This document shows, piece by piece, positions 9,070 to 20,327 of a DNA stretch of 26,523 nucleotides (position 1 is the stretch's first letter; each line of letters opens with the position of its first letter). Under the pieces are notes generated by a model. It was not told the origin of the DNA and did no database searches. It saw nothing but the letters and a program-made list of their open reading frames with translations. Source of the DNA: a virus (lineage: Duplodnaviria; Heunggongvirae; Uroviricota; Caudoviricetes); IMG/VR virus record IMGVR_UViG_3300037418_003165, positions 64,001 to 90,523 of that record. The stretch is one strand, 5' to 3'. Made by a program: the position numbers and the translations under genes.

Positions 9070-9360
9070 CTACTTCGGCTCGTGGATGTTCCCGTCCAAG
9101 TCGCGTACTCGGTTGGTCGGCGTCCGATAGGGCTCGCCGCGCATGGTCGCGGACAGCCGCCGGTCCAGTTCCGCGACATCGACACCGAGCTTCTTCAGCT
9201 CCTGCGTCGGGAGTGCGTCCGGATCCCGCAGCACCGAAAGGACTACGTGTTCGACGCCGATCCGCCTGTGGCCTGCGTCGGCCGCGATATCCGCGGCGTC
9301 GGCCAAGACCTGATTGAGCCGGGGCGTGCGCCAGGGGTGGCTGCGATCCATGTTCTCCAT
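9070..9360 (-). CDS. Stand-alone single Clp N-terminal (Clp_N repeat) domain protein, 96 aa
   Basis: TPRLNQVLADAADIAADAGHRRIGVEHVVLSVLRDPD..LKKLGVDVAELDRRL matches one ClpA/B/C N-domain repeat; no AAA+ module. Confidence 0.85.
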   Translation of the reverse strand: MENMDRSHPWRTPRLNQVLADAADIAADAGHRRIGVEHVVLSVLRDPDALPTQELKKLGVDVAELDRRLSATMRGEPYRTPTNRVRDLDGNIHEPK

Positions 9361-10688: not shown

Positions 10689-10918
10689 CAGATCGACCCC
10701 ATTTCCGGCGTGACGAAATCGCGACGCGCCAAAGAGACGGTAGGAGAGGGCAATTGCGGAAAGAACAGGCGGCGGAGCTTGTTCACGACACCCGCGATGC
10801 GCCGTGGTTGCGCGTGCTCGCGGTGGGCATCACGCCGCGACAGGAGCCTGGCCACCAGGTGTGCGCCGGCGACCGTCGCGGCGGCGGCCGCGAAGACGAG
10901 CAGATCGAACCTCGTCAT
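10688..10918 (-). CDS. Small membrane-anchored protein, 76 aa
   Basis: N-terminal hydrophobic helix and basic tail; start and stop overlap both neighbours. Confidence 0.6.
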   Translation of the reverse strand: MTRFDLLVFAAAAATVAGAHLVARLLSRRDAHREHAQPRRIAGVVNKLRRLFFPQLPSPTVSLARRDFVTPEMGSI

Positions 10919-11265
10919 GCCGGCACCTTCAGATCGGGATTTTCATAGACACCGTGCGCCAGGGCGCGTTCGCCGGCGATGGTGACGACCTGGACCATCT
11001 TCTGAACTGTGCTCAACGTCGTGACCGGTTGCAGATGGCGAAGCTCCGGGACTATCGCTGCCTCGGCGTGCGCTCGCCGAATCGCGTCGAACACTGCCGA
11101 TTCCGGTGCTGAGATGTCGAGATCGACGATTGCCGCGAGCTCCAGATTCAGCCTCTGGGCGAGGTCACGGATCTGGGCGCGGTGGATTTCGCGATACGGA
11201 CCCGATATATCCGGTGAGAGACAGCCTATGGCGATGCGGGCGCCGCCCGCGTCGAAGGTTCCCAT
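10915..11265 (-). CDS. Hypothetical protein resembling a degenerate resolvase N-terminal fold, 116 aa
   Basis: GAAGG RBS before ATG 11265. AIGCLSPDISG..QIRDLAQRLNLEL..AAIVPELRHL pattern; the catalytic Y-x-R-x-S is not conserved. Confidence 0.55.
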   Translation of the reverse strand: MGTFDAGGARIAIGCLSPDISGPYREIHRAQIRDLAQRLNLELAAIVDLDISAPESAVFDAIRRAHAEAAIVPELRHLQPVTTLSTVQKMVQVVTIAGERALAHGVYENPDLKVPA

Positions 11266-11416
11266 GGTGATGATGCCTTCCCGTGTGCGGGCGGTAAGCC
11301 CTTCTCCGGTTGCTCGTCGATAGCGCGCCTGGCCAGGCAAGACGACCGGTTTCGCGGTAGCGGAAAGGGCCGCCTGGTCGGGCGTGTGCACTAAACGTAG
11401 ATATCGGGCGCGGCGA

Positions 11417-11440
11417 AGACTCATATAAAAATATGAGTCT
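11417..11440. promoter_or_regulatory. Perfect palindromic operator in the divergent promoter region
   Basis: AGACTCATAT-aaaa-ATATGAGTCT (10-bp arms), AT-rich, over the predicted -35 region of the XRE gene. -10 TAGCCT at 11448-11453 lies 6 nt before ATG 11460. Confidence 0.8.
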
Positions 11441-11459
11441 CGGCCTGTAGCCTCGTGGT

Positions 11460-12695
11460 ATGAGCACAGAGCTGCCATCCCTGACGCAGGGGATCGGCGA
11501 TCGCATCCGCATCTACCGTCAGGCCGCCGGCCTCTCTCAAACCCAACTCGCTGCCTTGATCAAAAAGTCAGGGGTCTGGGTGTCCCAAGTCGAGCGCGGC
11601 ATCAGCCACTGCGATCGACTGACCGACATCGTCAATATCGCCGAAGCGTGCCGCTGCATGCCGCAGGACTTGCTAGGCGGTTCGATCAACGCGCTTTCGC
11701 CCAAGGCGACACCACGACGCGAGCAGGTCGCCGAGGTGCGCGAAGTCATCATGCGAACAGCGCTGCCGCTCGTCCAGCCGTCATCGGCCCCGACCTCCTC
11801 GCTCGACGAGGTTTCCACGCGAGTCGCGCAGGCCTGGACGACCTGGCACAAGTCTCCGACCGCACACGGGTCGGTTGGCCGGGTGCTTCCACAGCTCATC
11901 CTCGACGCCAACGCCACCTACCTCGCAGCTGGGGATGAGCACCGCCGCGCGGCGCGAACCCTCGCCGGCACATGGCAAATCACCCGCCAGTGGCTGCACC
12001 ACCTCCCCGAACCAGAACTCGCATGGGTCGTCGCCGAGCGGTCGGTCACAGCCGCCCGCGAAGCTGACGACCCGTACCTCCTCGCCCTGGGCGCCTGGGC
12101 CATGTCCGCGAGCTACCGGCGCGCCGGACAGCAGGAAGAAGCCACGCGCGTTTGCTTGGCCGCCGCCGACGACCTCAAACGTCGTCTTGGCGACGACCCG
12201 GCCAACGAGTTGCTCGCCGCCTACGGGATGCTCAACCTCGCAGCGGCGATCTCCTCAGCCCAGTCCGACGAGTCCAGCAAAGCATGGGCGCTGCACCAGG
12301 CCGCCGAAGAAGCGGCGCGGGCGCTCGGCACGACATACGACCCATGGACCATGTTCGGCATCGGCAACGTCGACATCCACGGCCTGGCCATCTCCGCCGA
12401 ACTCGGTGATCACGACGCCGTGGTCGACAAGATCTCACGTCTGGACATCGACAGAGTCCCGTCCGTCGAGCGCCGTGCGCGGCCGCTCATCGACGCCGCT
12501 CGCGGTTACGTCAAGCGCAAGGATGATCTCTCCGCGGTGATGGCACTGCTGCAAGCAGAGAAGATCAGCGCCGACGACGTCCACGACTCTGGCCTGGTCC
12601 GGGAATTGGTCCGCGAGTTGCTGATGCGAGATCATGCCCGCGCCCGCGCCGACGTGCGAGCCCTCGCCGTCCGCTGCCACTTGCTCATCGACTAG
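11460..12695 (+). CDS. XRE-family HTH regulator with long helical (TPR-like) C-terminal domain, 411 aa
   Basis: IGDRIRIYRQAAGLSQTQLAALIKKSGVWVSQVERG HTH followed by an Ala/Leu-rich helical region; actinomycete ~400-aa XRE architecture. Confidence 0.85.
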   Translation: MSTELPSLTQGIGDRIRIYRQAAGLSQTQLAALIKKSGVWVSQVERGISHCDRLTDIVNIAEACRCMPQDLLGGSINALSPKATPRREQVAEVREVIMRTALPLVQPSSAPTSSLDEVSTRVAQAWTTWHKSPTAHGSVGRVLPQLILDANATYLAAGDEHRRAARTLAGTWQITRQWLHHLPEPELAWVVAERSVTAAREADDPYLLALGAWAMSASYRRAGQQEEATRVCLAAADDLKRRLGDDPANELLAAYGMLNLAAAISSAQSDESSKAWALHQAAEEAARALGTTYDPWTMFGIGNVDIHGLAISAELGDHDAVVDKISRLDIDRVPSVERRARPLIDAARGYVKRKDDLSAVMALLQAEKISADDVHDSGLVRELVRELLMRDHARARADVRALAVRCHLLID

Positions 12696-12697
12696 AC

Positions 12698-14218
12698 ATG
12701 CGCCGATCTGATGGAATGGGCCGGATGACGAGCCGTATCGCCTACCGCGCCGCCGACGTACAGGCCGCTGTAGCAAAAGAATTGGAGACCGGCCGACCCG
12801 ATCGTCTTCTCCGCAAGGCCGCCGCGGGGCTGGCCGTGGTGTGCGCCGAGCAATTGGAGCAACACCACGGCACGATCTACGGACGCCGCGTAACCCTGCT
12901 GGTCGGCACCGGGCACAACGGGGCAGATGCGCTGCTGGCAGGAATCCGCCTGCGCCGCCGTGGCGTGAAGGTCACCGCGGTGCTCACCGGCGACACCGCA
13001 TACAAACCCGGAGTAGCTCAGCTCCGCGCAGCAAGCGGTCGCATCATCGCCGCTGACGATGTGAAGGCCGCGCAGCTCGCGCTCCGCGCAGCGGATCTCG
13101 TCGTCGACGGGATCATTGGCGAAAGCGGTGTCGGCGGCCTCCGCGATCGTGCCGCGCACCTGGCCGCCGCGGTCCCGGCCGACACGCCAGTCGTCGCGGT
13201 CGACCTTCCCAGCGGGATCGATCCGGATACTGGCGAAGTCCGCGGCTCGCACATGCGGGCCGATATCACCGTGACGTTCGGCGCGTGGAAGGGCTGTGCG
13301 ATCCTTCCGCCGGCCAGCAACCTCGTCGGCGAGCTGCGTTTCGTCGACGTGGGGCTGCCGCAGATCGAGGCCGCTCCGATCGCCCGCAGCCTCGACAGCA
13401 GCGGAATCGCCGCACTCTGGCCGAAACCGCCGAAAGCAGCACACAAGTACACGCGAGGGGTGCTCGGCATCGTCGCAGGCTCCGACACCTACCCGGGTGC
13501 GGCGGTGCTCGCGGTCGTCGGTGCGGTCGAGTCCGGTGCGGCTGGAATCGCGCGGTTCGTCGGGCCCGAAGGCGTTACCGCCAAGGTACTTTCAGCCGCT
13601 CCGGAAGCAGTCCCCGGTATCGGCCAGGTGCAGGCGTGGCTGCTCGGCTCCGGAGTCGAAGATGACGAGGACCAGGACAAGGCGATCGACACAGCGCTCG
13701 CGAGCGGTCTGCCCTGCGTCGTCGACGCTGGAGCACTCGAAGCGTGTACTCAGCGCCGCCTCAACGGTGAACGAGCCGCGGCCGCCGACAAGATCCTGCT
13801 GACACCCCACGCGGGAGAGGTCGCGCGGATCCTGGGCTGGCTCGGACAACCCGCCACGCGGTCCGAAATCGAGGCGCGGCCACTGCATTACGGACACTTG
13901 GTCGCGAGCGCCCTCGAAGTCACGGTGCTGGTCAAGGGGCCCACGACGATCATCGTCGATCCATCCGGCTTCGCAGCCAGCCAGGCCGAAGCGCCGGCAT
14001 GGCTGGCGACGGCCGGCGCTGGCGATGTTCTCGCGGGTATCGCCGGTGCCCTGATGGCGGCCGGGCTGAAAGCGATCGACGCCGGCGAGGCGGCGGCGCA
14101 CATTCATGGTCGCGCGGCGATGGTCGCCCACCAATCCCGCAGCGGCGGCCCGCTGACGGCCTCCGCAGTCGCCAAGGCGGCGCCAGCCGTGATCGGAGCC
14201 ATGCTGGCCTCGGCATAG
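12698..14218 (+). CDS. nnr: Bifunctional NAD(P)H-hydrate epimerase/dehydratase (YjeF_N NnrE fused to NnrD); true start may be ATG 12725
   Basis: NnrE motifs GTGHNGADAL, VVDGIIG, VAVDLPSG and TVTFG; NnrD motifs HKYTRG, GSDTYPGAAVL, VVDAGAL, LLTPHAGE, VLVKG, ATAGAGDVLAG and HGRAA. Confidence 0.92.
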   Translation: MRRSDGMGRMTSRIAYRAADVQAAVAKELETGRPDRLLRKAAAGLAVVCAEQLEQHHGTIYGRRVTLLVGTGHNGADALLAGIRLRRRGVKVTAVLTGDTAYKPGVAQLRAASGRIIAADDVKAAQLALRAADLVVDGIIGESGVGGLRDRAAHLAAAVPADTPVVAVDLPSGIDPDTGEVRGSHMRADITVTFGAWKGCAILPPASNLVGELRFVDVGLPQIEAAPIARSLDSSGIAALWPKPPKAAHKYTRGVLGIVAGSDTYPGAAVLAVVGAVESGAAGIARFVGPEGVTAKVLSAAPEAVPGIGQVQAWLLGSGVEDDEDQDKAIDTALASGLPCVVDAGALEACTQRRLNGERAAAADKILLTPHAGEVARILGWLGQPATRSEIEARPLHYGHLVASALEVTVLVKGPTTIIVDPSGFAASQAEAPAWLATAGAGDVLAGIAGALMAAGLKAIDAGEAAAHIHGRAAMVAHQSRSGGPLTASAVAKAAPAVIGAMLASA

Positions 14219-14296
14219 GGCGAGGCGTTGCGCCACTTCTGTTCTCGGGCTATGTACTCTGACCTGTGGTGATGATTCCAGAGCACAGCGTTTGAC

Positions 14297-14328
14297 GAGA
14301 TGGGCCGCCCTTCCGGGCGGCCCATCTC
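14297..14328. terminator. Bidirectional terminator-like hairpin between convergent genes
   Basis: Perfect 14-bp stem GAGATGGGCCGCCC-ttcc-GGGCGGCCCATCTC, then TGTTTT. Confidence 0.85.
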
Positions 14329-14334
14329 TGTTTT

Positions 14335-14970
14335 CTAGTAGCAGAAGTGGTAGTCGCCGTAGTAGTCGCAGTCCTTCTGGTACTCCCACTTATCCGGCAC
14401 GTCGCTGTTCGGGATCGCCGCGCCGGCGGCGCCGCCGATCAGACCACCGACCAGCAGGCCGCCGATCAGGCCGACGGGCAACGTAATCGGCAGGAGCAGG
14501 CCCTCGGTTGCGATACCGGCGATGAGGCCGATGAAGCCGCCAGCCAAGGCGCCGACGATCATGCCGACCGCGGCGCCGCCGCCGATACTGCGCGAGCGCG
14601 GTGAGGTGAGCTCCCAGTGGCCGATGTCGCTGGCCTTCGCGACGAGCTTGGTGCCGGACTTGTCCAGGTGCGGATCCAGCGCGATCCCGTGGCTGGCGAT
14701 CGGGAAGGCCAACGGAACCGTGGTGACCACGGTGCCGTCGCTTGCCGTCACGACCACCTCGTCGGTGTCGATGCGGAACCGGCCGCCGGTGATGTCAGCG
14801 ACCAGAGTGGTGCCTTCCCGGCTGAGGTTGTAGCTGACCCCGTGGTCGATCCCGTGGGTGCTGGTCGGCAGCGTGGAGGTCGCTGCCGGGTCGGCGGCCG
14901 CCGTGCAGTAGGTGACGGTCGTCGCGGCTGCGGCGAAGGCTGCGGTCGCGGCCAGCTGGCGGATCTTCAT
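14335..14970 (-). CDS. Exported protein with C-terminal glycine-zipper hydrophobic hairpin, 211 aa (Nocardia-type family)
   Basis: Signal peptide MKIRQLAATAAFAAAATTVTYCTAAA; beta-rich middle; GxxxG array GAAVGMIVGALAGGFIG..GLIGGLLVGGLIGGAAGAAI; terminal Cys pair. Confidence 0.8.
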   Translation of the reverse strand: MKIRQLAATAAFAAAATTVTYCTAAADPAATSTLPTSTHGIDHGVSYNLSREGTTLVADITGGRFRIDTDEVVVTASDGTVVTTVPLAFPIASHGIALDPHLDKSGTKLVAKASDIGHWELTSPRSRSIGGGAAVGMIVGALAGGFIGLIAGIATEGLLLPITLPVGLIGGLLVGGLIGGAAGAAIPNSDVPDKWEYQKDCDYYGDYHFCY

Positions 14971-15074
14971 TTGTGTGAATTCCTCTATGTGAGTGGGCAA
15001 TTGGAACGCCGCCGCTTCGGGCGGACAACTAGGGGTTGGATAGCGCGCGCCGGATGGCCGGCGCGGTCGGTGAA

Positions 15075-15803
15075 TCAGGAGGAGAGGGACGGCGGATCGG
15101 ACCACAGACCGCCGCCGAAACTGCTCCAGCGCGCTGACTGCAGCGCCAGGCTCTGCTGTGCGGCTCGGAGTTCCTCGCGGGCCTCTTCGACTTGCTCGCG
15201 CAGTGCTCGCGCGTCGTTGGCGTGCTTGAGGCGCTCGCTCTCGATGGCGCGCGTGCACCGGTCCCGCTCGCTCGCGATCTCGACCCGGTGCTTGTCGAGG
15301 ATCTCCTGCACCGCTTCGTCATGGCCCTGCTGTGCGCGCTGCAGGTTTTCCTCCGACGAGTGATGCATTTGCAGCAGCGATGCGCTGTGGGCCTCGTGCA
15401 GGCGTTCGATGCGATCGCGGAGCTCGGCGATCTGCTCGTTGGCTCGGTCGAGCTGGTTTTCGGCGCGCAGGCGTGCGCGCTCGGATTCCTCCAGCCGCAC
15501 GGTGGTCTCGGTCAGTCGGTCCGGCTCGAGGATGGTTGCGGGCTGCGGTGCCGGTGGGGTCATCGGTGCCGCCTCCTCGTTGCCGGCCTGGGCCGCCGCG
15601 ATCTTTTCTTCGTTCTGGCGGGCATTGCGGGCGTTGTGGGTGGGATCGTCGCAGTACTTCGGTGGCGCCCCGACGAGGTTTCGGCGCCGGACGTCTCGGT
15701 TGCAAACCTGACCGTCGAGGGTTCGGAACGGGCAGGAACCGATTACCGGTCCAGGGGGAGGGTTCGATACCGGTCTCAAATGGCGCGCGGGTTCGGATTC
15801 CAT
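15075..15803 (-). CDS. Protein with N-terminal Cys/His putative Zn motif and long coiled coil, 242 aa
   Basis: CPF..VC..GAPPKYCDDPTH, then about 120 residues of heptads. Architecture recalls coiled-coil DNA-binding proteins of actinobacterial mobile elements. Confidence 0.7.
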   Translation of the reverse strand: MESEPARHLRPVSNPPPGPVIGSCPFRTLDGQVCNRDVRRRNLVGAPPKYCDDPTHNARNARQNEEKIAAAQAGNEEAAPMTPPAPQPATILEPDRLTETTVRLEESERARLRAENQLDRANEQIAELRDRIERLHEAHSASLLQMHHSSEENLQRAQQGHDEAVQEILDKHRVEIASERDRCTRAIESERLKHANDARALREQVEEAREELRAAQQSLALQSARWSSFGGGLWSDPPSLSS

Positions 15804-16652: not shown

Positions 16653-16700
16653 TGCGTGCTTCACGCACTACCAGCAACCTGGTGTTGCGTGAAGCAAGCA
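16653..16700. mobile_element. Candidate intact attP site of the serine integrase
   Basis: 48-bp imperfect palindrome, 19 of 23 positions per arm complementary (TGCTTCACGCA/TGCGTGAAGCA and ACCAG/CTGGT) around central AA (16676-16677), 73 bp upstream of int. Confidence 0.7.
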
Positions 16701-16773: not shown

Positions 16774-18180
16774 TTGATCCAATGCGGTGTTTACCTCCGC
16801 CAGTCCGACGATGATGAAGACACCCAGCTGGCCGTCACCCGGCAATGGGACGAGATCATCGCGAAGATCATCACCCCGCGTGGGTGGATTCCGGTCCGCT
16901 ATTGCGACAACGACCGGACCGCGGTCGGGCGCAAACGGGCGCTCCCGGAGCGTGACCGGATGCTGCGGGACGTCAAATCCGGACAGTTGCAGGCGATGGC
17001 GGCTTGGGACTGCGACCGCCTCTACCGCGAGCCCGTCGACCTCGAAGAGATCATCGACATCGCCGACCGCAACCACACGCTGCTGGCCACCGTGACCGGT
17101 GACATCGACTTGTCGACCGACAACGGTCGTCTGTTTGCCCGTATCAAAGGCGCGGTCGCGAAGGCTGAGACAGAGCGGCGATCCGCGCGCCAGAAGTCCA
17201 AGACGCGGCAGCTCGCGGCAGCCGGCCAGAACTTCAGCTCCCGTCGATCCTTCGGCAGGATGCCGGACGGATCGCTGAATCCAGTCGAGGCCCCGGTACT
17301 CGCCGAAGCCTATGAACTCGTGCTGACCGGCCACAGCCTCAACGGCATCATCACCGAGTGGAACCAGCGCGGCATTCTCACCAGCCTCGGCAACAAATGG
17401 AAGTCCCCGACCCAGCTGTCGACCATCCTGAAGAACCCGCGCAACGCAGGCTGGAAGTCCTACCTCGGTGAGATCATCGACGACACCGAGGCCGCATTCG
17501 AGCCGATTGTGTCGGCTGAGGTGTGGCGCGCGGTCAACGAGATCCTCGCGGACCCGTCCCGCCGGCCGGTCGATGTCGCGCGCAAATATCAACTCACCGG
17601 CATTGCCCAGTGCGGAGGCGTCTGCGCCAATCAGGATCCGCCTGTCGTCTCCACGGTGAAGGTGTGGAAGCTCTCGACAACCAATCCGATCCTGGTGCTT
17701 CGCTGCCGCACCTGTTTCGGTGTCGTGCGCGTGATGTCGGTAATCGACGACTACATCAACGGTCTGGTCATCGCTCGCCTCTCGTTGCCGGACGCTGCGG
17801 AGCTGCTGATCGACCAAAAGGTTCCCGACCTCGAGCAACGGCGGACCGAAGCGGCGGCGCTGCGCCAGCGCCTCAAGTCCCTGGCACTCGATTTCGCCGA
17901 CGGGGAGTTGGACTCGACGCAGCTGAAGGCGGCCACCAAGCGCATCAAGGAGAAGCTGGCGATCGCGGAGTCGGTCGTTCAGGATGCGAACCGGGCCCGC
18001 CTGTTCAAAGATGTCGTCGGGCCGGAGGGAGCACAGAAGTTCCCCGGTCTTCATCTCGACCGCCGGCGGGCGATCATCTCGACGCTGATGTCGATCACTC
18101 TGCTGCCGCAGCCCCTGCATGATCCGTTCGACCCGGAATCCGTCGTCATCGAATGGAAAGATCCGATCGCCGGGCGGTGA
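16774..18180 (+). CDS. int: Large serine integrase (phiRv1 Rv1586c-like), 468 aa
   Basis: Catalytic VYLRQS, WDCDRLYREP and TVTGDIDLSTDNGRLFARIKGAV, recombinase domain, Zn ribbon (LTGIAQCGGVC..RCRTC) and coiled coil. Confidence 0.93.
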   Translation: MIQCGVYLRQSDDDEDTQLAVTRQWDEIIAKIITPRGWIPVRYCDNDRTAVGRKRALPERDRMLRDVKSGQLQAMAAWDCDRLYREPVDLEEIIDIADRNHTLLATVTGDIDLSTDNGRLFARIKGAVAKAETERRSARQKSKTRQLAAAGQNFSSRRSFGRMPDGSLNPVEAPVLAEAYELVLTGHSLNGIITEWNQRGILTSLGNKWKSPTQLSTILKNPRNAGWKSYLGEIIDDTEAAFEPIVSAEVWRAVNEILADPSRRPVDVARKYQLTGIAQCGGVCANQDPPVVSTVKVWKLSTTNPILVLRCRTCFGVVRVMSVIDDYINGLVIARLSLPDAAELLIDQKVPDLEQRRTEAAALRQRLKSLALDFADGELDSTQLKAATKRIKEKLAIAESVVQDANRARLFKDVVGPEGAQKFPGLHLDRRRAIISTLMSITLLPQPLHDPFDPESVVIEWKDPIAGR

Positions 18181-19596: not shown

Positions 19597-20208
19597 CTAC
19601 CCGGACGCGTCGTCGACGCCGTTATCGCCGTCGATAGCGGCAGATCTAGCGGAAGGATTGGCCTGCTTGGTCAAGTACTGCAGGGCCTCTCCTAGCGCCG
19701 ACATCTGATCCGGGCCGCCCATCCATTCAGCTACGGCATCGGCGCCGGTCTCCAGAACCTCCTCCACCACTTCGGCGAAGTCTTCAGCCGCCATCTCGCC
19801 AGCCCTGAAATCCTCCAGGCGCAGGCCGAGGCGAGACAGCGCGATCATCAGCTGAATCATCGACGTGTTGGTGACGGGATGATTCGTCATCGTGTAGCGG
19901 ACGCTGCCGTCATTGCCGGCGGATAGTTCACCGAATGGTCGGGTTATCCCGCGTCGCGTCTGCTTCGGCAGTGTTTCGGGATCTCCCTCACGTAGATAGA
20001 CGCGCGTCGCGCTCCCCGGCTCCCAGTCCAAGCCGACGTCCAGTTTGCGCAGCGTGTCCTTGCTCACGGAGGTCGCGGTGCCCTGTTCCAGCCCGGTCAG
20101 CGTGGTGTCCGACGGGCCGCCAGCGCGGTAGACGTCGACTTGGGTGCGGCGCAACTCGAGGCGGCGTTTCTTCACGAGTTGGCCAAGCCTTGCTATGTCC
20201 GGGCGCAT
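19597..20208 (-). CDS. Immunity repressor (HTH), 203 aa
   Basis: RLGQLVKKRRLELRRTQVDVYRAGGPSDTTLTGLEQG..TLRKLDVGLDWEPGS is the actinophage repressor pattern; divergent from a Cro-like gene. Confidence 0.85.
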   Translation of the reverse strand: MRPDIARLGQLVKKRRLELRRTQVDVYRAGGPSDTTLTGLEQGTATSVSKDTLRKLDVGLDWEPGSATRVYLREGDPETLPKQTRRGITRPFGELSAGNDGSVRYTMTNHPVTNTSMIQLMIALSRLGLRLEDFRAGEMAAEDFAEVVEEVLETGADAVAEWMGGPDQMSALGEALQYLTKQANPSARSAAIDGDNGVDDASG

Positions 20209-20228
20209 GAACCCAGTTTGAACGAGAA

Positions 20229-20327
20229 CTTCGGCAAACAGAAGCGTCTTCGGCAAACAGGGCATCTGCGTGTGCGCAGGTCAAGGTTGCTGCGAGCGAG
20301 GCCAAATCGTAGCAATGTTTGCCGAAG
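20229..20327. promoter_or_regulatory. Three copies of an asymmetric 12-13 bp operator-like motif in the repressor/cro interval
   Basis: CTTCGGCAAACAG at 20229-20241 and 20248-20260; inverted TGTTTGCCGAAG at 20316-20327. Confidence 0.8.

What the first reader, a model, noticed from the sequence alone, without database searches (positions are those of the whole stretch)
11417..14328. XRE sensor-regulator plus NAD(P)HX repair enzyme as a self-contained two-gene unit in a phage
Seen: operator, leaderless-type promoter, 411-aa XRE, nnr starting 2-29 nt after its stop, then a strong terminator. Both NnrE and NnrD motif sets appear intact (epimerase loop reads GHNGAD rather than the usual NNGGD). 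Known: Nnr restores damaged NAD(P)H hydrates; the housekeeping copy in mycobacteria lies near glmS/alr, not behind an XRE; phages counter NAD+-depleting defences with NAD-rebuilding pathways (NARP1/2). Inference: an accessory, regulated redox-cofactor repair module that I do not recall being described in phages, benefiting the lysogen under heat or acid stress, or sustaining NAD(P)H during lytic growth. A link to NAD-targeting defence is speculative.
Basis: partly seen in the sequence, partly recalled or inferred. Interest (0 to 1): 0.8.

Follow-up and report, generated by a model that had tools for sequence, protein, structure and literature searches.

The report
Phage-borne regulated NAD(P)HX repair cassette
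A complete temperate phage of Nocardia-type bacteria carries a two-gene unit copied from its hosts, a sensor-type repressor plus a second-copy enzyme that should mend water-damaged NAD(P)H; this kind of phage cargo turned up in no phage database or paper I could search.

Summary
Window 11412-14328 contains a dyad operator, a -10 box placed for a leaderless mRNA, a 411-aa XRE regulator, a bifunctional Nnr starting 2 nt after its stop, and a strong terminator.

The record is a real, complete temperate siphovirus: 90.5 kb, circular assembly, with terminase, portal, capsid, tape measure and a serine integrase.

New here: the pair is a pre-existing actinobacterial cassette. XRE and this Nnr ("Nnr2") are adjacent in every Nocardia genome that has them (orthologue level in 11 of 201 species genomes), and they are linked in other actinobacterial orders. 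All 8 Nocardia carriers tested also have a separate housekeeping nnr.

The phage copy nests inside the Nocardia Nnr2 clade. It is 80% (Nnr) and 86% (XRE) identical to a copy that sits inside an unrelated N. wallacei prophage. Most other copies are chromosomal, so capture went from host to phage.

Catalytic motifs are intact, dN/dS is about 0.1, and the operator arms co-vary across loci. The "GHNGAD" loop is ordinary family variation.

Nnr has no PHROG family and no match in any isolated phage. No link to NAD-targeting defence was found. The physiological role is untested. It is a new member of the moron/auxiliary-gene class.

The parts
11368..14218 (+). Block of DNA homology with the Nocardia wallacei cassette: the captured unit, from 92 nt upstream of the XRE ATG to the nnr stop codon
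   Evidence: blastn gives 76.7% identity over 2863 nt to N. wallacei contig C207 47628-50485. The homology stops at the nnr stop codon.
11412..11445 (.). Operator: dyad-symmetric site (perfect core AGACTCATAT-N4-ATATGAGTCT, 11417-11440) overlapping the -35 to -10 interval of the cassette promoter
   Evidence: Unique in the genome. The same position holds a palindrome in 10 homologous loci, and both arms change together: CTCATAT/ATATGAG, CTGATA/TATCAG, TTGATAC/GTATCAAC, CTGCTAA/TTAGCAG, CTCGTA/TACGAG.
11449..11454 (+). -10-like hexamer TAGCCT (TAnnCT) ending 5 nt before the ATG; implies a leaderless mRNA
   Evidence: GTAnnCT and its distance to the ATG are kept in 10 loci. The sigma-70 consensus scan finds nothing here. 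The transcription start is inferred.
11460..12695 (+). XRE-family regulator, 411 aa: N-terminal HTH plus a C-terminal TPR-like alpha-solenoid (residues ~105-411), the presumed ligand sensor
   Evidence: HTH_31 E 1.9e-10. Full-length match to phrog_5823, E 1.5e-73. AlphaFold2 model pLDDT 90.4. Fold matches: MalT domain III Z 17.4, phage phi105 Rap Z 17.4, NprR and PlcR Z 14, ImmR HTH Z 12.1. 86% identical to the N. wallacei protein.
12698..14218 (+). Bifunctional NAD(P)HX epimerase/dehydratase paralogue ('Nnr2'), 506 aa (500 aa if started at 12716)
   Evidence: YjeF_N plus Carb_kinase. Aligns end to end with T. maritima Nnr 2AX3, E 2e-36, keeping xNGxD, DGxxGxxG, PSGxD, HKxxxG, TPHxGE, GxGD and HG. 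80% identical to the N. wallacei copy. Sits in a 100/99-supported subclade within the Nocardia Nnr2 clade.
14297..14328 (.). Intrinsic terminator hairpin between the convergent nnr and the minus-strand gene 14335-15258
   Evidence: 14-bp stem with 11 G-C pairs, loop of 4, T-rich tail. It lies outside the block shared with N. wallacei.

Best explanation
This is a moron: a host-derived, autonomously regulated operon carried by a temperate Nocardia siphovirus in the cargo region between the tail/lysis genes and attP-int.

Proposed mechanism. A dimer of the XRE protein binds the dyad operator that overlaps its own leaderless promoter and represses the XRE-nnr2 transcript. An unknown ligand sensed by the TPR-like C-terminal domain relieves repression. 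Nnr2 is translated by close coupling to XRE. Nnr2 then epimerises R-NAD(P)HX to the S form and dehydrates it, using ADP or ATP, back to NAD(P)H. This adds an inducible second repair capacity on top of the host's housekeeping Nnr. The unit ends at its own terminator and is wired independently of the phage lysis-lysogeny circuit.

Origin. The whole promoter-XRE-nnr2 block was captured from the Nocardia accessory genome, where the same cassette exists in about 5% of species.

Shown: the anatomy, homology, origin, purifying selection, operator co-variation and phage context. Inferred: repression, ligand control, enzymatic activity, expression in the lysogen and any fitness benefit.
For: - Real complete phage.
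- XRE sits immediately upstream of nnr2 on the same strand in all 10 intact Nocardia loci plus two metagenome contigs.
- All 8 Nocardia carriers and one Micromonosporaceae MAG have a separate, higher-scoring housekeeping nnr.
- The tree places the phage protein inside the Nocardia Nnr2 clade (100/100), far from housekeeping copies.
- The DNA homology block is exactly promoter through nnr stop.
- dN/dS is 0.09 (XRE) and 0.12 (Nnr) at dS ~1.1, against the N. wallacei prophage copy.
- Motifs are intact.
- The operator is conserved in place with compensatory arm changes, and the -10 to ATG spacing is fixed.
- The operator is unique in the phage genome.
- The XRE fold is HTH plus a TPR sensor, like RNPP regulators and MalT domain III.
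- A separate weak-HTH gene (19597-20265, minus strand, next to int, divergent from the early genes) is the better candidate for the immunity repressor.
- B. subtilis NAD(P)HX dehydratase contributes to stress adaptation (PMC4231035).
Against: - No expression, binding or enzyme data exist.
- Nnr2 scores lower than housekeeping copies on family models: Carb_kinase 127 vs 190-211 bits. It is 6 bits below the TIGR00196 cut-off. Its substrate could therefore differ from NAD(P)HX.
- No sigma-70-type promoter is detected.
- No clear Shine-Dalgarno sequence precedes nnr.
- Why a host that already has Nnr needs a regulated second copy is unexplained.
- The ligand is unknown.
Confidence: 0.68

Rival explanations
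1. Counter-defence or lytic-cycle auxiliary gene. Nnr2 would act during infection to keep NAD(P)H usable, or would process an ADP-ribose- or NAD-derived molecule made by a host defence system. In this reading the YjeF_N and ribokinase-like domains bind such nucleotides, and XRE times expression.
For:
- The cassette has been taken up by two unrelated Nocardia (pro)phages.
- Nnr2 is a divergent paralogue whose substrate is unproven.
Against: - No PADLOC match.
- No Nampt/NAPRTase or Nmnat family gene in the phage.
- Most copies sit among ordinary metabolic genes in chromosomes, not in phages or defence islands.
- Nnr chemistry does not rebuild NAD+ after cleavage (established knowledge).
- Autorepression by a ligand-sensing regulator fits a lysogen-expressed stress gene better than an early lytic gene.
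Confidence: 0.12
2. Neutral hitch-hiker. The cassette would be passenger DNA picked up by illegitimate recombination or imprecise excision near the att end, with no selected role in the phage.
For: - It lies in a 7.5-kb host-like cargo block next to the attP-like site at 16653-16700.
- No relative was found in IMG/VR or in isolated phages, so carriage is rare.
- GC3 is lower than in the structural genes: 0.77-0.80 vs 0.85-0.89.
Against: - dS ~1.1 with dN/dS ~0.1 between the two phage-borne copies means long retention under purifying selection.
- Both genes, the operator and the -10 box are intact.
- By contrast, chromosomal copies do decay: XRE is split in L009 and truncated in L011.
- Much of that divergence could have accrued in chromosomes before two separate captures, so this evidence is not decisive.
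Confidence: 0.15
3. Assembly artefact or host contamination: the cassette would belong to host DNA mis-joined to a phage contig.
For: The closest relatives are bacterial chromosomal genes.
Against: - The contig closes on itself with a 127-bp overlap, and phage genes lie on both sides: tail and lysis upstream, integrase and early genes downstream.
- Identity to any Nocardia genome is only 77% at the DNA level.
- An independent N. wallacei prophage carries the same cassette internally.
Confidence: 0.03

Closest known systems
Bifunctional NAD(P)H-hydrate repair enzyme Nnr (E. coli YjeF; T. maritima TM0922, PDB 2AX3; B. subtilis YxkO dehydratase, 3RPH/1KYH)
   Same: Same two-domain architecture, YjeF_N plus Carb_kinase. 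End-to-end alignment to 2AX3 (E 2e-36) with the nucleotide-, K+- and catalytic-site motifs conserved.
   Different: It belongs to a distinct actinobacterial paralogue clade that coexists with the housekeeping gene, separated by a long branch. It scores lower on the family models. It is always paired with an XRE-TPR regulator, and here it is phage-borne. Activity is untested.
Phage morons / lysogenic-conversion cassettes (e.g. lambda bor and lom; prophage-encoded cargo genes of mycobacteriophages)
   Same: An autonomous transcription unit with its own promoter and terminator, set between phage modules on the opposite strand to its neighbours, near the att/int end of a temperate phage, and of host origin.
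   Different: The cargo is a cofactor-damage repair enzyme captured together with its cognate ligand-sensing repressor. I found no such cargo in PHROGs, INPHARED or the searched literature.
RNPP-type regulators (PlcR, NprR, PrgX, Rap; phage phi3T/phi105 Rap) and MalT domain III
   Same: XRE-type HTH followed by a TPR-like superhelical sensor domain. Structural matches have Z 14-17.4 over about 230-270 residues.
   Different: Sequence identity is only 6-11%. There is no adjacent pheromone-peptide gene: nnr starts 2 nt after the XRE stop. The lineage is actinobacterial, not Firmicutes. Helical-repeat matches at this Z may reflect only a common fold (note).
phrog_5823 regulators of temperate Streptomyces phages (e.g. 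Chymera gp24, SF1, phiHau3 'putative XRE regulator')
   Same: Same length and architecture, with a full-length profile match of E 1.5e-73. In Chymera the gene also lies between the lysin and the integrase.
   Different: Only 27-31% identical. None of these phages has an nnr next to it. Their function is unknown.
Phage NAD+ reconstitution pathways NARP1 and NARP2
   Same: Phage-encoded enzymes acting on the nicotinamide cofactor pool.
   Different: No Nampt/NAPRTase-family or Nmnat-family gene is in this phage. Nnr repairs hydrated NAD(P)H and does not rebuild cleaved NAD+ (established knowledge).

Membership tests
Nnr (bifunctional NAD(P)HX epimerase/dehydratase) | N-terminal YjeF_N (epimerase) domain | tested here: met
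   PF03853 E 7.1e-30, residues 36-200. TIGR00197 scores 88.8 bits against a cut-off of 88.6.
Nnr (bifunctional NAD(P)HX epimerase/dehydratase) | C-terminal ribokinase-like Carb_kinase (dehydratase) domain | tested here: met
   PF01256 E 4.5e-36, residues 257-483. TIGR00196 scores 123.9 bits, just under its 129.85 cut-off.
Nnr (bifunctional NAD(P)HX epimerase/dehydratase) | Conserved binding and catalytic motifs: xNGGD loop, DxxxGxG, PSGxD; HKxxxG, TPHxGE, GxGD | tested here: met
   Alignment to 2AX3 and to 36 family members. N74, G75 and D77 are invariant. The first loop residue varies (N/K/H/D) even in housekeeping copies, and G-to-A at the fourth position is typical of the Nocardia Nnr2 clade.
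Nnr (bifunctional NAD(P)HX epimerase/dehydratase) | ADP/ATP-dependent conversion of S- and R-NAD(P)HX to NAD(P)H | not testable with these tools
   Needs an enzyme assay.
Phage moron | Located inside a bona fide phage genome, between phage modules | tested here: met
   Tail and lysis genes upstream; attP-like site and serine integrase downstream; circular 90.5-kb record.
Phage moron | Own promoter and terminator, independent of the phage operons | tested here: met
   Conserved operator and -10 box; terminator; flanking genes 10915-11478 and 14335-15258 are on the other strand. Promoter activity itself is inferred.
Phage moron | Absent from related phages; host origin | tested here: met
   No isolated-phage hit for Nnr. 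Nearest relatives are Nocardia chromosomal copies.
Phage moron | Expressed from the prophage | not testable with these tools
   Needs RNA data from a lysogen.
RNPP quorum-sensing regulators | HTH plus TPR sensor architecture | tested here: met
   AlphaFold2 model pLDDT 90. PlcR Z 14 spanning residues 9-352; NprR Z 14; Rap Z 17.4.
RNPP quorum-sensing regulators | Cognate secreted peptide gene adjacent to the regulator | tested here: not met
   nnr starts 2 nt after the XRE stop. The upstream neighbour is a divergent ORF of >120 aa. No small-peptide ORF was identified, but no dedicated peptide search was run.
Known anti-phage defence systems (PADLOC-DB 2.0) | Match of the effector to a defence-system model | tested here: not met
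   Nnr has no PADLOC family. XRE gives only generic HTH hits, E >= 6e-5.
NARP1/NARP2 NAD+ reconstitution | Nampt plus Nmnat (NARP2) or ADPR-PP synthetase plus Namat (NARP1) | tested here: not met
   PF04095 and PF01467 are absent from the whole phage genome, with positive controls. The NARP1 enzymes were not searched.

The most novel reading that the evidence does not exclude
XRE-Nnr2 would be a mobile, ligand-switched cofactor-maintenance module that temperate actinophages recruit for the phage-host contest over the NAD(P)(H) pool. Nnr2 would either keep NAD(P)H usable under infection or defence-induced stress, or act on an NAD/ADP-ribose-derived molecule rather than on NAD(P)HX, with the TPR domain of XRE sensing that molecule.
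Probability: 0.1. Interest if true: 0.8.

Novelty: new member of a known kind. Interest (0 to 1): 0.42.

Why it matters
- Metabolite-damage repair would be a new functional category of phage cargo. Here it travels with its own sensor-repressor, so the lysogen gains a ready-wired inducible trait.
- The analysis also exposes something not described in the papers I could search: a conserved XRE(TPR)-Nnr2 cassette across Actinomycetota that coexists with housekeeping nnr. This implies either a regulated back-up for NAD(P)HX repair or a shifted substrate.
- The co-varying operator and the compact architecture make the regulator-ligand-enzyme relationship directly testable.
- Nocardia includes opportunistic pathogens, so prophage-borne stress-tolerance cargo may be relevant to strain fitness. 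No such effect is shown here.

Tried and rejected
I used genome contigs, metagenome contigs and the genome search instead.
- IMG/VR pattern scans with the single protein and with the Nnr2 alignment found no other viral contig. The XRE alignment found one distant (30%) viral relative, which I did not follow. These scans need exact 8-mer peptide matches, so they are a weak negative.
- The INPHARED tblastn gave only four short (5-12 kb), unannotated human-faecal 'Bacteriophage sp.' fragments at <=33% identity. I did not treat them as evidence for phage nnr and did not inspect them.
- Rejected: the 411-aa XRE as the immunity repressor. Its operator is unique, and a better-placed HTH gene lies next to int.
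- Rejected: GHNGAD as a meaningful deviation.
- Rejected: a toxin-antitoxin reading. The only hit is a generic HipB-like HTH, there is no toxin-like partner, and the regulator is large.
- Aberrant-excision capture from a site next to a related prophage was considered. In N. wallacei the cassette is inside the prophage, not beside it, so this route is neither supported nor excluded.
- An apparent homologue of the upstream divergent ORF in N. wallacei (34% over 128 aa) partly reflects antisense translation of the shared promoter/XRE DNA, so it is only weak evidence for a three-gene block.
- One unfiltered tblastx run produced only noise and was repeated with a score filter.
- One search was a mistyped query.
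Full report
WHAT THE RECORD IS. The window is bases 64001-90523 of a 90,523-bp IMG/VR virus record. The record has a 127-bp terminal overlap, meaning a circular assembly, a CheckV completeness estimate of 100% and 66% G+C. PHROG profiles identify the following:
- large terminase (E 6e-49)
- portal (E 1.8e-93)
- major head protein (E 3e-77)
- a 1762-aa tape measure protein
- a minor tail protein
- an endolysin-like protein
- in the window, a serine integrase at 16774-18180 (phrog_95, E 1.7e-64)

The portal is 53-57% identical to portals of Mycobacterium abscessus prophages and cluster-F-like mycobacteriophages. This is therefore a genuine, complete temperate siphovirus of a mycolic-acid actinobacterium. 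Earlier notes on the same genome reached the same host guess.

THE OBSERVATION.
- Operator. The inverted repeat has arms at 11412-11426 and 11431-11445, with a perfect 10-bp core separated by AAAA. It is unique in the 90.5-kb genome even allowing five mismatches, and its 9-mer half-site is expected 0.15 times by chance.
- XRE gene. It runs 11460-12695 (411 aa; HTH_31 at residues 13-70).
- nnr reading frame. It has in-frame ATGs 2, 20 and 29 nt after the XRE stop. It encodes YjeF_N plus Carb_kinase domains.
- Terminator. A 14-bp, G+C-rich hairpin with a T-rich tail lies at 14297-14328.
- Coding signal. Codon-position G+C supports both genes.
- Strand context. The genes on either side, 10915-11478 and 14335-15258, are on the minus strand, so the unit stands alone.

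ORIGIN: A PRE-EXISTING HOST CASSETTE. The best database hits of both proteins are Nocardia proteins, and they lie on the same contigs. N. wallacei gives 80% identity for Nnr and 86% for XRE. At least 45 contig lengths recur in both hit lists, spanning Nocardia, Micromonosporaceae, Planosporangium, Microlunatus, Pseudonocardiaceae and Promicromonospora.

In every intact Nocardia locus fetched, XRE lies immediately upstream of nnr on the same strand. These loci are L006, L007, L008, L010, L012 and L038-L042, plus metagenome contigs L044 and L045. Two loci show decay of XRE with nnr intact: XRE is split in L009, and only the last 106 residues remain in L011. In two Micromonosporaceae MAGs the genes are near each other but convergent. 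One of these, L013/G203, is flagged unpublished. The statement also rests on L014/G204.

All eight Nocardia carriers tested, and the G204 MAG, have two nnr-type genes. One is a housekeeping copy scoring 186-211 bits on Carb_kinase. The other is the XRE-linked copy, scoring 128-149 bits; the phage copy scores 127 bits.

A maximum-likelihood tree separates the XRE-linked clade ("Nnr2") from Nocardia housekeeping Nnr by a long, fully supported branch. It places the phage protein in a 100/99 subclade with N. wallacei and three other sequences, inside a 100/100 Nocardia Nnr2 clade. The mis-extracted N. wallacei housekeeping row was left out of the tree.

Orthologue-level XRE (>=57% identity) occurs in 11 of 201 Nocardia species genomes sampled. 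A looser tier of same-architecture regulators (30-36% identity) occurs in 125 of 201. The cassette is therefore a rare accessory trait, and the phage gene is a xenologue of the accessory paralogue, not of the housekeeping gene.

HOW IT GOT INTO PHAGES. DNA homology between the phage and N. wallacei runs from 92 nt upstream of the XRE ATG to the nnr stop codon and no further (76.7% over 2863 nt). The promoter, regulator and enzyme therefore moved as one block.

The N. wallacei copy is itself inside a prophage. The 64-kb contig carries these genes, almost all on the minus strand:
- capsid, head-morphogenesis and portal (phrog_533) genes at 20-26 kb
- YqaJ, Rad52 and DnaT-like early genes at 52-56 kb
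- a tyrosine integrase at 58.4-60 kb

The plus-strand cassette is embedded at 47.7-50.5 kb. That prophage differs from the present phage in integrase type, portal family and cassette position.

Two further loci (N. amamiensis L010; Nocardia sp. L012) have a tyrosine integrase 1.3-1.7 kb downstream of nnr. The other nine contexts examined hold ordinary chromosomal genes: AurF, PPK2, P450, NusB/EF-P, ABC transporters, esterases and an L,D-transpeptidase. These nine include two metagenome contigs from the phage's own subclade. Flanks are not syntenic between species. The simplest reading is host-to-phage capture, at least once, possibly followed by exchange between phages.

Between the two phage-borne copies, dS is about 1.1, with dN/dS of 0.09 (XRE) and 0.12 (Nnr). 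Both genes have therefore stayed under purifying selection.

IS THE ENZYME INTACT? The protein aligns end to end with T. maritima Nnr (2AX3, E 2e-36). It keeps the epimerase motifs (xNGxD, DGxxGxxG, PSGxD) and the dehydratase motifs (HKxxxG, TPHxGE, GxGD, HG).

Across 36 relatives, N, G and D are invariant. The first residue is N, K, H or D (D in Nocardia housekeeping Nnr). Ala at the fourth position is the norm for the Nocardia Nnr2 clade.

Nnr2 is nevertheless a divergent paralogue with lower family-model scores. NAD(P)HX is the most likely substrate, but this is unproven.

IS IT UNDER XRE CONTROL? Ten loci carry a palindrome at the same distance from the start codon, and both arms change together: CTCATAT/ATATGAG, CTGATA/TATCAG, TTGATAC/GTATCAAC, CTGCTAA/TTAGCAG and CTCGTA/TACGAG. 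The arms flank an A/T-rich spacer. This is the signature of a site read by a dimeric HTH protein that co-evolves with it.

A GTAnnCT box ending 5 nt before the ATG is conserved in position. This fits the actinobacterial TANNNT -10 element and a leaderless transcript (established knowledge; the start site itself is inferred). In L009, where XRE is broken, the palindrome is degenerate.

The AlphaFold2 model of XRE (pLDDT 90.4) is an HTH followed by a roughly 300-residue TPR-like solenoid. The best bacterial structural matches are MalT domain III and phage phi105 Rap (Z 17.4 each). RapH, NprR and PlcR follow at Z 14-15, and ImmR matches the HTH at Z 12.1. This is the architecture of ligand- or peptide-sensing regulators. 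Helical-repeat matches at this level show fold, not function.

The protein also matches phrog_5823 over its full length. That family consists of uncharacterised regulators of temperate Streptomyces phages, which carry it without nnr. In phage Chymera the gene lies between the lysin and the integrase.

The cassette operator occurs nowhere else in this phage. A weak-HTH gene beside int (19597-20265, minus strand) is better placed to be the immunity repressor.

IS IT NEW? Searches for a prior example found the following:
- Nnr has no PHROG family.
- It has no match in any isolated phage among 50,697 INPHARED records. The only hits are four short, unannotated faecal fragments at <=33% identity.
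- It has no relative in IMG/VR by pattern scans.
- It has no PADLOC model.
- Full-text searches for NADHX or NAD(P)H-hydrate enzymes together with phage, prophage or auxiliary metabolic genes returned nothing relevant.
- No plasmid carries an orthologue-level XRE.
- The phage has no Nampt/NAPRTase-family or Nmnat-family gene, so nothing links it to NAD+ rebuilding.

VERDICT.
- The lineage is Nocardia, not Mycobacterium.
- The unit is a captured host accessory operon, not a phage invention.
- The epimerase loop is ordinary.

It is a new member of the moron/auxiliary-gene class, with a cargo type (cofactor-damage repair with its own sensor-repressor) that I did not find described. The physiological role, the ligand and the substrate are inferences awaiting simple experiments.

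Noticed in passing
window 9070-9360 (-): A 96-aa protein consisting of a single Clp_N domain (PF02861, E 3e-9). Homologues (44-48% identity) lie 2-3 kb upstream of the XRE-nnr cassette in two Nocardia genomes (L009, L010). The link may be loose or coincidental.
   Followed up: partly
window 16653-16700: A 22-nt imperfect inverted repeat (86% complementary, 4 nt between the arms) just upstream of the serine integrase gene.
   Followed up: partly
window 19597-20265 (-): A 222-aa protein with a weak XRE-type HTH (E 0.004-0.006) and phrog_6288 (E 2.6e-24). It lies next to int and is divergent from the plus-strand early genes. It is the likelier immunity repressor.
   Followed up: no
L033-L036 (Nocardia wallacei contig NZ_JARWOP010000207.1, ~3-60 kb): A prophage with a tyrosine integrase, YqaJ/Rad52/DnaT-like recombination genes, a PAPS-reductase-like gene (phrog_2302) and a capsid of the same PHROG as this phage. 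It carries the XRE-nnr2 cassette internally, on the opposite strand to its neighbours.
   Followed up: partly
L009:2741-3853 and L011:9633-9950: Decaying regulators next to intact nnr2. XRE is split in Nocardia sp. NPDC057455, where the operator is also degenerate. XRE is reduced to its last ~106 residues in N. donostiensis. This suggests nnr2 can persist without its repressor.
   Followed up: no
window 11397-11405: A second conserved upstream box (GTAGATATC; consensus TAGGTATC) about 55-62 nt before the XRE ATG in 6 of 7 aligned loci. It could be an auxiliary half-site or part of the divergent gene's promoter.
   Followed up: no
window 14335-15258 (-) and 15075-15803 (-): Two overlapping minus-strand cargo ORFs without family matches; the second is coiled-coil-like. 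The second shows weak similarity (30-41% over 51-89 aa) to sequence downstream of nnr in L009 and L012.
   Followed up: no
L043 (Streptomyces phage Chymera, KU958700.1 18154-19377): Temperate Streptomyces phages carry a same-architecture XRE-TPR regulator (phrog_5823, 27-31% identity) without nnr; in Chymera, the one inspected, it lies between the lysin and the integrase. The same architecture is also widespread in Nocardia chromosomes (125 of 201 genomes) and on Streptomyces plasmids.
   Followed up: partly
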